64,000 bases of DNA from Roseivirga sp. UBA6052 (GCA_002427755.1 DIYO01000007.1:6633-70632); one strand, 5' to 3'. Numbered from the stretch's first letter, positions 26,359-30,715 are shown. Notes: a model not told the origin generated them from the sequence alone. Made by a program: numbers and translations.

Positions 26359-27474
26359 CTATTCTTGATCATAAAGCAGCTCAATACCTTCTAGATTTTC
26401 AAAGGCGGCCATTACCCCCCATCCTCCAAAATTCTCTGAGACTACTATCCATAACTCGTTTTTTCCTTTTTCTAAATGCAAGAACACACTATCGAACAAA
26501 CCCATTGTACCTAAGAAGCGATAATCTCTTGATCTAAAACCATCTTCTCCTCCGGCTATGATTTTATCATTGAGATAGACTAATGCCCTATCGCTAAAAC
26601 CATATTTTAACTTCTTTACTTGATCCTTATCTGATTCAATGATCAATCTTGCAATCAAGGTATTCTGATCTTCAATCTGTCCTGCTCTTCTATTTAAATT
26701 GGCAAACCCTCTTGACTCTACAGAAATCTTCTTCCACTCAAGTTCCTTTTTAAATGCATTTGTCACTTTATACAAGGTCTGAAAATCAGACTCCTTCTTT
26801 AGGTCTGATACTTGCCAGGACTTTACATATTCGGCAGGCAACGGATTCGTGACTTTGGATTTACTAACTAACTTAGGTTCAGTTGCTTTAGTAATTTTCA
26901 AATTTGAGTAACGTGCTCCAACAGGGCCACCACCCGACAACTGAATTGAACCAGAAACCACCTCTTCTTTTAAGTGAGGCATATAAAGCACTGGGGCATT
27001 CATATCGTTAATGAAAACTTCTGCTTCATTTTCAGCAATCACAATCTTTACATGATTCCAATCATTCATGCTATACACTTTAGTGGTTGAGTACCCCTCT
27101 CCTACATACAGCTGCCATCCGGCATAGCCGTTATATACCGGTGTGTACTGCATGGCATCTGGATTGCCAGACTGATGAGGCCTAATGTAGAACTCTTCAA
27201 AGTTGTTTTGATCTTTCATTCTAAACCTCATACCAGGAAACCCCCGATCTGGGGTGATGTAAACATCGTATTCAATGATACCCCTTTTAAAATCTAATGG
27301 GACCTTTGGACTTGCTATGCCATTGAAAATGTGAAGGGTTTGCCGACCTTTTAGCGTATAGAAAGCATGATTTTCAGCTTCTATATTCCAATTTGCCTCG
27401 GTAAAGGCAAGCGATTGTGCTGATACATTTCTTACTGTGACCAACACAAATAATAGATAAATGTAAGTTTTCAT
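26359..27474 (-). CDS. Secreted beta-jelly-roll protein (DUF1080/LamG-like plus a second beta domain)
   Basis: Signal peptide; YIRPHQSGNPDAMQYTP, DWNHVKIVI...AEVFIND, SGSIQL. ATG 27474 preferred. Confidence 0.7.
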   Translation of the reverse strand: MKTYIYLLFVLVTVRNVSAQSLAFTEANWNIEAENHAFYTLKGRQTLHIFNGIASPKVPLDFKRGIIEYDVYITPDRGFPGMRFRMKDQNNFEEFYIRPHQSGNPDAMQYTPVYNGYAGWQLYVGEGYSTTKVYSMNDWNHVKIVIAENEAEVFINDMNAPVLYMPHLKEEVVSGSIQLSGGGPVGARYSNLKITKATEPKLVSKSKVTNPLPAEYVKSWQVSDLKKESDFQTLYKVTNAFKKELEWKKISVESRGFANLNRRAGQIEDQNTLIARLIIESDKDQVKKLKYGFSDRALVYLNDKIIAGGEDGFRSRDYRFLGTMGLFDSVFLHLEKGKNELWIVVSENFGGWGVMAAFENLEGIELLYDQE

Positions 27475-27520
27475 TCTATTGAGTTTTCCTCTAATCACGT
27501 AAAATGAAACTTAGAAGCTG

Positions 27521-27575
27521 ATTCAGATCTATTCAAGTTCATTCATTCTCATTCATCTCAGTTCAAATCGATTCA
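27521..27575. repeat. Six ATTCA units at exact 10-bp phase
   Basis: ATTCA at 27521, 27531, 27541, 27551 and 27571; GTTCA at 27561. Confidence 0.9.
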
Positions 27576-27593
27576 ATCACGTATCTTTCATAT

Positions 27594-28862
27594 ATGAATG
27601 AGGACTTGATCTCTCTGTGCTTAAAAGAGATAGAAGAAAAACTGAGTTGGGTTTCTAGTGAAGATTGGCAAAACCAGGACTTCGAACTCTTGAGTGACTC
27701 TATCTTTGAAAAGAGTCAGGTTCGATTAAGTGTAACTACTTTAAAGCGTGTATGGGGAAAGGTCAATCATAAAGGTGCGCCAAGTGTTACCACCTTAAAT
27801 GCCCTTGCTCAATTTCTAGATTATCAGAATTGGAGTGACTACCGAAATCAGAATACTAATGATAAGTCCCCAAAAACTGTACAGTCAAAGCACTTTCCTT
27901 CAAAGTACTTGGTGAGTGTTGGCGGCCTAATGATTTTGTTCATGATCATCTTTGGCATTGCTCAACTGAACTCAGCTGGTAGTACCTCATCTCTAGACCT
28001 TCAAAGCATAACATTCAGTGCTCAACCCGTTACTAAAGGCTTACCCAACTCCGTATTGTTCGAATATTCTTATGGAAGTAATGAGATAAGTGAAGCTCAA
28101 ATACAGCAGTCTTGGAATTCTAGATTAACATTTGACATTGACCCTACTAAAAACCAAGCAACAGCATTTTATTATTATCCAGGGTATTTTCAAGCTAAAC
28201 TATTAGCAGATGGAGAGATAGTGAAAGAACAGGGTCTAAAAGTACCCACCAATGGTTGGATGGGTACTATTGACCAAGATACCCGGCCCAGATACCTCTA
28301 TGATGACGAATTGGTTAAGAACAATAGTCTATCTATTACAGATAAGCTCCTTAATGAGATCAAAGCTAAAGACAATGAAGAAGCTAGTTTATTGACTTAC
28401 CACTACTTTGACGAACTACCTGAGATCTATAGCAATGATTTTACTTTCGAGACTAGGTTTTTAAATAACTATAATAAGAGTAATGGTATTTGTAAAAGAG
28501 TTGAATTACTCGTGCATGGAGAAACTGGCGTTTATCTTATTCCATTTTCTATAGCCGGCTGTTCAAGTGAACTTGATTTGATCAATTCAGGTGATCAAGT
28601 CTATGGCAAGGAGAATGACCTGTCAATGTTTGGACTCAATACGGGAGAATGGATCAATTTCAAATTAGAGGTTGAAAATGGTTTGGCGCGATATTTTGTC
28701 AACAATACACAAGTATTCCAAAAGGAATTAGTCTATAACATTGGCCAATTAGTTGGTTTTAAAGTTCGATTCGAAGGATCGGGTAAACTGGACCACATTA
28801 AATTGAATAATGATATGGGGGCTACATTTTGGGAAGACTTCAATGATCCCTCCATCCACTAA
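27594..28862 (+). CDS. Putative membrane-anchored one-component regulator (HTH-like - TM - PKD/Ig-like - jelly-roll)
   Basis: N-terminal LSVTTLKRVWG...TTLNALAQFLDY helical domain, one TM (YLVSVGGLMILFMIIFGIA), YYYPGYFQAKL, C-terminal beta-rich domain. Confidence 0.65.
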   Translation: MNEDLISLCLKEIEEKLSWVSSEDWQNQDFELLSDSIFEKSQVRLSVTTLKRVWGKVNHKGAPSVTTLNALAQFLDYQNWSDYRNQNTNDKSPKTVQSKHFPSKYLVSVGGLMILFMIIFGIAQLNSAGSTSSLDLQSITFSAQPVTKGLPNSVLFEYSYGSNEISEAQIQQSWNSRLTFDIDPTKNQATAFYYYPGYFQAKLLADGEIVKEQGLKVPTNGWMGTIDQDTRPRYLYDDELVKNNSLSITDKLLNEIKAKDNEEASLLTYHYFDELPEIYSNDFTFETRFLNNYNKSNGICKRVELLVHGETGVYLIPFSIAGCSSELDLINSGDQVYGKENDLSMFGLNTGEWINFKLEVENGLARYFVNNTQVFQKELVYNIGQLVGFKVRFEGSGKLDHIKLNNDMGATFWEDFNDPSIH

Positions 28863-29755: not shown

Positions 29756-30715
29756 ATGCAGCGTAAAAGAGAATCACTCCACACTGAGTCGATCTTGAAC
29801 ATCTTGGCCTTTTTTAAGAAACCCCTTAAGGTATCTGGTTTACTTGCGCTTTTCATTCTTATTGTGGCTTCCAGCTATTTCAGAGAAGTAATTTTTAATA
29901 CGAGAGAAAGTGGCTATGAAATACCTGCGCAAATTACATTCGACTTTGATCTTGATGGAATCGAATCAAATAACATCTACGTCAAAAAATCTAGTAGTGA
30001 TAAACAAGGAACAACAGTTGATCCCAAATCAAATACGATAAGCATCATCTATGAGTACCCCGGGTTCTATAAAGCCCGCCTTCTAGTAGATAATAAGACA
30101 GTAAAATCAAGTGATGTATTTATCAAAACCAATGGTTGGCTGGCCACAACTACCAAAGACAATTTCATTAAATACCACAACCAAGCACTTATCACCAATC
30201 ATAACGAAATCTCAATCCCTGAAAAATGGAGTGATAGGAATGCATTCGATAAAGTAACCTATCATTACTTCGATCAAATCAACCCTATTAGCGGCTTAGA
30301 TTTTGTTCTAGAAGCTGAATTGAAAACTATTCAACCTAAAGACTTCTATCAATGCAACTATGTACAAGTAGAGATAGTTGGCTCTAATTCTTCCAGTTTA
30401 ATACCTGTTACGCTGTCGGCCTGCTCAATAGATCTACCTGTAACAATTGCAGGACACGAAAATTTCACTCGATCTACTCTTAATAAATACTTAGCAGCAA
30501 ACAACAACTCTGAGTGGCAAAATTTTAAGCTAGTTGTCCATGGTGGAACAGCTCAATTCATTATCAACAATCAAAAGCAATTAACTCTTCCGGTTAAATC
30601 CAGTATGGGACAAATCGTTGGACTTCGCTTCCATTTTGACGGTAATGGAGCCATTAAAAATGTCAACTTAACTGACACTCAGGAAGTCACCTACATAGAC
30701 ACTTTTCAACCTTAA
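29756..30715 (+). CDS. Paralog of the 27594 regulator lacking most of the N-terminal HTH-like domain
   Basis: YEYPGFYKARLLVD...IKTNGWLA aligns with YYYPGYFQAKLLAD...VPTNGWMG; VGLRFHFDGNG aligns with VGFKVRFEGSG; one TM near the N-terminus. Confidence 0.7.
   Translation: MQRKRESLHTESILNILAFFKKPLKVSGLLALFILIVASSYFREVIFNTRESGYEIPAQITFDFDLDGIESNNIYVKKSSSDKQGTTVDPKSNTISIIYEYPGFYKARLLVDNKTVKSSDVFIKTNGWLATTTKDNFIKYHNQALITNHNEISIPEKWSDRNAFDKVTYHYFDQINPISGLDFVLEAELKTIQPKDFYQCNYVQVEIVGSNSSSLIPVTLSACSIDLPVTIAGHENFTRSTLNKYLAANNNSEWQNFKLVVHGGTAQFIINNQKQLTLPVKSSMGQIVGLRFHFDGNGAIKNVNLTDTQEVTYIDTFQP

What the first reader, a model, noticed from the sequence alone, without database searches (positions are those of the whole stretch)
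26359..28862. Candidate undescribed ToxR-like one-component system: HTH-TM-PKD-jelly-roll sensor with a divergent secreted jelly-roll target
Seen: an ~85-aa helical N-domain (FELLSDSIFEKSQVRLSVTTLKRVWG...TTLNALAQFL), a single TM, a PKD-like YYYPGYFQAKL segment and a C-terminal beta domain (EWINFKLEV...ARYFVNN). The divergent gene encodes a secreted DUF1080-like protein with a similar strand motif (DWNHVKIVI...AEVFIND). Known: ToxR/CadC place a cytoplasmic DNA-binding domain and a periplasmic sensor on one bitopic protein; LamG/DUF1080 folds often bind glycans. Inference: a kinase-free transmembrane transcription factor that senses a periplasmic ligand and controls the divergent gene through the phased array.
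Basis: inference. Interest (0 to 1): 0.72.

Follow-up and report, generated by a model that had tools for sequence, protein, structure and literature searches.

The report
Membrane-anchored gene regulator with phased operator
This looks like an unnamed family of membrane-anchored sensor-regulators, found in over 400 Bacteroidota species, that probably switches on a neighbouring secreted-protein gene by binding a row of short DNA repeats spaced one helix turn apart; nothing has been tested at the bench.

Summary
ORF 27594-28862 (+) encodes a 422-aa bitopic protein: a five-helix N-domain, one TM helix, an Ig-like beta-sandwich and a ConA-like jelly roll. ORF 26359-27474 (-) encodes a secreted DUF1080-type protein.

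- Relatives occur in 425 species genomes, and the only conserved neighbour is the secreted gene (72 of 79 loci, divergent).
- 63 of 79 loci carry at least 3 direct [G/A]T[T/G/A]CA[A] repeats at exactly 10 bp in the shared promoter, against 8 such arrays in 2.0 Mb elsewhere.
- The window has six units, the only intergenic array in its 4.06-Mb genome.
- In Lewinellaceae the gene order differs, and the array stays with the secreted gene's promoter.
- Secreted-gene homologs in genomes without the regulator have no array (0 of 9).

The N-domain matches no Pfam family or solved structure significantly. Three sub-threshold signals point to a divergent Cro/CI/XRE-type HTH. The domain is also modular, fused elsewhere to STAND NTPases and other sensors.

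It works like ToxR/CadC but is not a member, because it has no winged helix. DNA binding, ligand and sign of regulation are all inferred. I class it as a new variant of a known kind.

The parts
26359..27474 (-). Secreted two-domain protein, the presumed regulated gene. It has a signal peptide, an N-terminal DUF1080/3-keto-disaccharide-hydrolase-like jelly roll (about residues 60-200) and a conserved C-terminal domain of unknown family (about 210-371). The mechanical ORF extends to a GTG at 27498.
   Evidence: ORF. PF06439 at E 3.7e-5, below the cut-off; 24 of 28 homologs match PF06439. Full-length homolog immediately divergent from the regulator in 72 of 79 loci.
27506..27513 (-). Putative Bacteroidetes-type -7 promoter box of the secreted gene. 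It reads TAAGTTTC on the minus strand, against the consensus TAnnTTTG.
   Evidence: Read from the sequence. An equivalent box follows the array in related loci by a median of 30 nt. The consensus is from my own knowledge of Bacteroides/Flavobacterium promoters. No transcript data are available.
27521..27580 (+). Operator candidate: six direct 10-bp units, ATTCAGATCT ATTCAAGTTC ATTCATTCTC ATTCATCTCA GTTCAAATCG ATTCAATCAC. They fill the space between the two divergent promoters.
   Evidence: 0 of 100 shuffles match. It is the only intergenic array in the 4.06-Mb genome. A homologous 3-5-unit array is present in 63 of 79 related loci, against 8 in 2.0 Mb elsewhere.
27582..27589 (+). Putative -7-like box (TATCTTTC) of the regulator's own promoter, 4 nt before the ATG. 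This would imply a leaderless or near-leaderless mRNA.
   Evidence: Read from the sequence. Relatives carry TAcaTTTG-type boxes at the same place. Inference only.
27594..27860 (+). Regulator residues 1-89: cytoplasmic five-helix N-domain, the candidate divergent Cro/CI/XRE-like HTH. Helix 27-41, turn, then helix 47-53 carrying the invariant T49 L50 K51 R52.
   Evidence: AF2 pLDDT 90.3. It is the most conserved part of the protein. hhalign to HTH_3 gives P=0.005, against 0.48 for the reversed control. PDB profile hits to the TP901-1 CI HTH at E 0.17. BFVD sub-threshold hits are mostly Cro/CI/XRE repressors.
27903..27974 (+). Single transmembrane helix (residues 104-127), oriented N-in/C-out.
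   Evidence: AF2 helix 104-127. Mean Kyte-Doolittle hydropathy is 2.45 across 119 homologs. K+R counts are 4.08 before and 1.93 after the helix.
27996..28298 (+). Periplasmic Ig-like (possibly PKD-like) beta-sandwich, residues about 135-235, with motifs GLPNSVxF, IQQSW and YYYPGYFxAKL.
   Evidence: AF2 strands 140-235. Invariant residues. PKD comparison not significant (P=0.075).
28311..28835 (+). Periplasmic ConA-like/LamG-like jelly roll, residues about 240-414, the presumed ligand-binding sensor. The invariant C300 and C323 are a probable disulfide.
   Evidence: Foldseek E 1e-5 to 3e-4 against CBM66, PL7 lyases, a legume-lectin-like domain and 3h3l. 8 of 36 members weakly match PF06439. Invariant Cys pair.
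29756..30715 (+). Headless paralog (319 aa) with the TM and the same two outside domains but no N-domain. It may be an accessory partner and is not part of the conserved core.
   Evidence: 26% identity to regulator residues 107-416. Orthologs in only 2 of 15 other genomes of the genus, and not adjacent to the regulator there.

Best explanation
The 422-aa protein is a kinase-free, membrane-anchored one-component transcription regulator. It belongs to a previously unannotated family that is widespread in Bacteroidota.

Its cytoplasmic N-terminal five-helix domain is most likely a very divergent Cro/CI/XRE-type helix-turn-helix whose recognition helix carries the invariant TLKR. I propose that this domain binds the row of [G/A]T[T/G/A]CA[A] direct repeats between the two genes.

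The repeats are spaced exactly one helical turn apart. Several membrane-tethered protomers could therefore dock side by side on the one face of the DNA that can approach the membrane. In most species three units lie directly upstream of, and in phase with, the -33 element of the secreted gene's promoter. That is an activator position. The same units reach the -33 region of the regulator's own promoter, which suggests autoregulation.

The periplasmic Ig-like plus ConA-like module would sense a ligand, probably a carbohydrate or envelope-derived glycan. It would change the oligomeric state or orientation of the protomers across the single TM helix.

Shown: domain architecture, topology bias, conserved synteny, conservation of the cis-element and its coupling to the secreted gene and to the presence of the regulator.

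Inferred: that the N-domain binds the repeats, the sign of regulation, the nature of the ligand and the mode of signalling.
For: Architecture and topology: the AF2 models and the positive-inside bias, 100 proteins against 6. An invariant Cys pair lies outside the membrane.

No phosphorelay domain is present.

Distribution: relatives in 425 species genomes, and 3056 N-domain clusters at E<=1e-3.

Synteny: only the secreted DUF1080-type gene is conserved next to the regulator, in 72 of 79 loci and divergent. The next most frequent neighbour occurs in 12 loci.

Cis-element:
- 63 of 79 loci have at least 3 strictly 10-bp-phased units within 260 nt upstream, against 8 arrays in 2.0 Mb of both-strand flanks.
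- The T, C and A of the unit core were fixed by the scan that defined the units. The free positions are G 0.71/A 0.29 at position 1, T 0.69 at position 3 and A 0.79 at position 6. The TLKR helix of the protein is invariant.
- The window's six-unit array is unique in its genome. The other three strict matches lie inside coding regions, and their number equals that for periods 8-13.

Natural rearrangement: in Lewinellaceae (L039, L053) the order is regulator then secreted gene on one strand. Three TTGTAC repeats (10/11 bp) sit between them, in the same orientation relative to the secreted gene.

Co-occurrence: secreted-gene homologs without a regulator in the genome have no array. This holds for 0 of 6 Bacteroidota and 0 of 3 Acidobacteriota loci. 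Canonical neighbours have it in 3 of 3.

Promoter geometry: the units abut an in-phase TTGTTT (-33-like) element, followed by a TAnnTTTG-like box. The proximal unit lies a median of 66 nt before the secreted gene's ATG.

HTH:
- hhalign to HTH_3 gives P=0.005 in the recognition-helix register, against 0.48 for the reversed control. With the diversified N-domain alignment it gives P=0.013.
- PDB profile hits to the TP901-1 CI N-terminal HTH at E 0.17-0.37, in the same register.
- The named BFVD hits are mostly Cro/CI/immunity/XRE repressors, with TM-scores up to 0.55.

Modularity: the N-domain is also fused to STAND/NACHT-like NTPases, helical repeats, a small soluble domain or other TM sensors. 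This is the usual behaviour of an output DNA-binding domain.
Against: No significant match of the N-domain to any HTH family or structure was found. Pfam gives nothing for the window protein or for 49 N-domains. Foldseek against the PDB has a best E of 3.7, and against BFVD a best E of 0.93. The hhalign probabilities are low, at 3-7%.

16 of 79 loci fail the strict array test. Most of them show degenerate or 11-bp-spaced versions. The f30 subfamily (G108, G180, G188) shows no array under the strict test; G180 and G188 show two ATGA[AG]C-like units.

In the window the array overlaps both promoters' -33 regions and spacers, so repression is as plausible as activation.

A linker of about 15 residues between the HTH and the membrane requires the DNA to come to the membrane.
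Confidence: 0.74

Rival explanations
1. Sensor plus periplasmic feedback partner. The regulator does bind the array, but the secreted DUF1080 protein is not merely an output enzyme. It would dock on the regulator's periplasmic Ig/ConA module as a co-sensor or inhibitor, closing a feedback loop. Two known systems work this way: CpxP, which is divergently transcribed from cpxRA and inhibits CpxA, and the obligate partners ToxS and VtrC of ToxR and VtrA.
For: The pairing is strict and very old, across four classes, and it survives rearrangement. No other metabolic or transport gene is ever co-conserved. That is odd for a catabolic regulon. Both proteins are periplasmic and both carry ConA-like jelly rolls. 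The comparisons with CpxP, ToxS and VtrC come from my own knowledge and from the co-component preprint listed.
Against: The secreted family also exists alone in genomes without the regulator, in Acidobacteriota and six Bacteroidota. It therefore has a function of its own. In Spirosomaceae the immediately divergent gene is a DUF2911-like protein instead.
Confidence: 0.3
2. The N-domain is a protein-protein interaction module and not a DNA binder, as with RodZ, whose XRE-type HTH binds MreB. The two genes would then encode an envelope complex, and the conserved repeats would be bound by some other, soluble transcription factor.
For: No significant HTH match was found. The RodZ precedent for a non-DNA-binding HTH on a bitopic protein is from my own knowledge.
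Against: The array occurs only at this locus in the genome, so a separate factor would have to be dedicated to it. Yet no third conserved gene exists. The array is absent wherever the regulator is absent. The N-domain recurs at the N-terminus of STAND NTPases and small soluble proteins, like the DNA-binding heads of AfsR/MalT-type regulators. The system is accessory, missing from 6 of 16 genomes of the genus, unlike a morphogenetic protein. More distant TM homologs also have TTGTAAA triple repeats upstream.
Confidence: 0.1
3. Released-head mechanism. The protein is held inactive at the membrane, and on signal the N-domain is cut free by regulated proteolysis to act as a soluble factor on the array. 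On this reading it does not bind DNA while tethered.
For: The disordered linker (91-102, pLDDT below 50) varies from about 15 to about 70 residues among homologs and could hold a cleavage site. This would solve the short-tether problem.
Against: No protease gene is conserved nearby. One-turn phasing of direct repeats fits same-face binding by tethered protomers. ToxR and CadC act while membrane-bound (my own knowledge; CadC papers listed).
Confidence: 0.12

Closest known systems
ToxR/CadC-type transmembrane transcription activators (ToxR, TcpP, CadC, VtrA, PsaE)
   Same: These are bitopic, with a cytoplasmic DNA-binding head at the N-terminus, one TM helix and a periplasmic sensor at the C-terminus. 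They have no kinase or receiver domain. ToxR recognises direct repeats with a one-turn period, TNAAA-N5-TNAAA (my own knowledge). The regulated genes encode exported or membrane proteins, which favours bringing the locus to the membrane.
   Different: Their DNA-binding domain is an OmpR/PhoB winged helix (PF00486). Here it is an all-alpha five-helix domain with no Pfam match. The sensor here is an Ig-like plus ConA-like module, unrelated to the ToxR or CadC periplasmic domains. The family is found mainly in Bacteroidota, not Proteobacteria.
BguR and SusR, membrane-spanning one-component regulators of Bacteroidota (bioRxiv 10.64898/2026.01.10.698779)
   Same: They occur in the same phylum and follow the same logic: a periplasmic glycan sensor coupled directly to a DNA-binding domain without phosphorelay. 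BguR also has a conserved motif in the intergenic region next to the regulator gene.
   Different: BguR has the opposite topology and different parts. It is 940 aa, with a signal peptide, N-terminal periplasmic tandem beta-propellers plus Y_Y_Y, one TM and a C-terminal GerE-type HTH, and it sits next to SusC/D PULs. The family here has an N-terminal head, a small jelly-roll sensor and a single-gene target with no PUL.
Cro/CI/XRE (lambda-repressor-like) HTH domains, including membrane-bound BcrR of Enterococcus faecalis
   Same: This is the best, though sub-threshold, sequence and fold resemblance of the N-domain. BcrR is an N-terminal XRE-type HTH fused to membrane helices and acts as a one-component sensor (my own knowledge).
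   Different: No significant match was found. Helix 1 and helix 2 are longer and the loop after the recognition helix has an insertion. BcrR has four TM helices, no extracytoplasmic domain, and binds inverted repeats.
RodZ (XRE-type HTH, single TM, periplasmic domain)
   Same: The gross architecture is the same: a small helical cytoplasmic head, one TM and a periplasmic tail.
   Different: RodZ is a core morphogenetic protein whose HTH binds MreB. The family here is accessory, is tied to a partner gene and a cis-element, and matches neither HTH_25 nor DUF4115.
DUF1080 / 3-keto-disaccharide hydrolase family (PF06439), for the divergent gene and distantly for the sensor domain
   Same: Both have the ConA-like jelly roll. 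24 of 28 homologs of the secreted protein match PF06439, as do 8 of 36 regulators weakly.
   Different: The secreted protein carries an additional, strongly conserved C-terminal domain of unknown family (SRDYRFLGTxG...ENFGGWG). No 3-keto-sugar pathway genes (oxidoreductase, isomerase) are nearby, so the enzymatic assignment is open.

Membership tests
ToxR-like receptor family (ToxR/CadC/TcpP) | N-terminal cytoplasmic OmpR/PhoB-type winged helix-turn-helix (Pfam Trans_reg_C, PF00486) | tested here: not met
   No Pfam hit on the protein, on 36 full-length homologs or on 49 N-domains. The AF2 model is five helices with no beta wing.
ToxR-like receptor family (ToxR/CadC/TcpP) | Single-pass membrane protein, N-in/C-out, with a periplasmic C-terminal sensor and no phosphorelay domains | tested here: met
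   One TM helix at 104-127. K+R bias of 4.08 against 1.93, with 100 proteins agreeing against 6. Folded beta domains lie C-terminal of the TM. No HisKA, HATPase or REC hits.
ToxR-like receptor family (ToxR/CadC/TcpP) | Binds operator repeats at the target promoter while membrane-bound | not testable with these tools
   Only indirect evidence is available: a conserved phased array coupled to the target promoter and to the presence of the regulator.
Cro/CI/XRE HTH superfamily (HTH_3 clan) | Significant sequence match to an HTH_3-clan profile | tested here: not met
   No Pfam match even at E<=10. hhalign to 18 HTH_3 domains gives P=0.005, probability 7%. The PDB profile search gives E 0.17 to the TP901-1 CI HTH.
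Cro/CI/XRE HTH superfamily (HTH_3 clan) | Five-helix lambda-repressor-like fold with helices 2 and 3 forming the HTH | tested here: inconclusive
   A confident five-helix model. Foldseek finds no significant hit, but the sub-threshold hits are 3cec (HigA-like) and the OCT4 POU domain, and Cro/CI/immunity/XRE repressors with TM-scores up to 0.55 and rmsd 3-4 A.
Transmembrane transcription regulators as surveyed in PMC10269533 | A Pfam-recognised DNA-binding domain plus at least one TM region in one protein | tested here: not met
   That survey used the Pfam DNA-binding-domain HMMs listed by MiST. This protein has none, so it would have been missed. Functionally it fits the class.
BguR/SusR-type one-component regulators | N-terminal periplasmic sensor (beta-propellers/Y_Y_Y), one TM and a C-terminal cytoplasmic GerE-type HTH | tested here: not met
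   The domain order here is the opposite, and there are no GerE or Y_Y_Y hits. BguR is described.
RodZ | HTH_25-type head, a C-terminal DUF4115 domain, and near-universal single copy in rod-shaped bacteria | tested here: not met
   No such Pfam hits. The N-domain is present in only 18 of 201 sampled Bacteroidota genomes, and a family member in 10 of 16 genomes of the genus.
DUF1080 / 3-keto-disaccharide hydrolase (PF06439), for the divergent gene | Match to PF06439 above the gathering score | tested here: inconclusive
   The window protein scores 24.3 bits against a cut-off of 26.8. 24 of 28 homologs match, with a best E of 7.7e-9, and several have PF06439 precomputed.

The most novel reading that the evidence does not exclude
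The N-domain defines a new DNA-binding output domain, seen so far mainly in Bacteroidota and invisible to Pfam and to current censuses of signal transduction. It would be plugged onto at least five kinds of sensor module: TM plus Ig/ConA, TM plus another outside domain, STAND NTPase plus TPR, helical repeats, and a small soluble domain. It would read TTG-N-A-type direct repeats set one helical turn apart.

In the TM form, ligand-controlled side-by-side oligomerisation on one DNA face would replace phosphorelay. The co-conserved secreted DUF1080 protein would be a CpxP/ToxS-like periplasmic partner that feeds back on the sensor, not a simple enzyme output.
Probability: 0.3. Interest if true: 0.78.

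Novelty: new variant of a known kind. Interest (0 to 1): 0.62.

Why it matters
Membrane-bound one-component regulators are the simplest way to carry a signal across a membrane. Only a few types are understood (ToxR/CadC, SusR, and now BguR), and censuses find them through known DNA-binding-domain models.

This family has no such model, although it occurs in at least 425 species. These span Cytophagia, Flavobacteriia, Saprospiria and Chitinophagia and include many marine genera. Its N-domain is present in about 3000 protein clusters. Part of Bacteroidota signal transduction is therefore uncounted at present.

The system comes with an unusually clean, testable prediction set. There is one regulator, one target gene and one operator with defined core bases and exact helical phasing. 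Natural variation in unit number (3 to 6) and in gene order is also available. That makes it a compact model for how tethered regulators find and occupy DNA, and a candidate minimal sensor part for Bacteroidota synthetic biology.

It would also give a first functional handle on a large secreted DUF1080 subfamily.

Tried and rejected
- Pfam and NCBIfam on the regulator, the two small ORFs and the paralog gave nothing useful.
- PDB sequence and profile searches with the full-length alignment gave 0 hits, and with the first N-domain alignment only chance hits.
- Foldseek with the N-domain gave no significant hit in the PDB or BFVD. I use those results only as a weak trend.
- I rejected the idea that the sensor jelly roll is a recent copy of the secreted protein's domain. 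The profile-profile similarity is only P about 1e-3, and to both of the secreted protein's domains.
- The PKD assignment is not significant.
- Other array matches are chance. Window 30975 and 47285 (a loose nTnCA pattern) and genome sites C1:379617, C4:187584 and C9:739334 all lie inside coding regions, at the background rate seen for periods 8-13.
- The weak phmmer hit of the secreted protein's C-domain to cerebellin C1q (E 0.0017) comes from three copies in a fusion construct, each individually non-significant. It was not reproduced with a profile.
- The Acidobacteriota contexts of the secreted family gave no functional clue.
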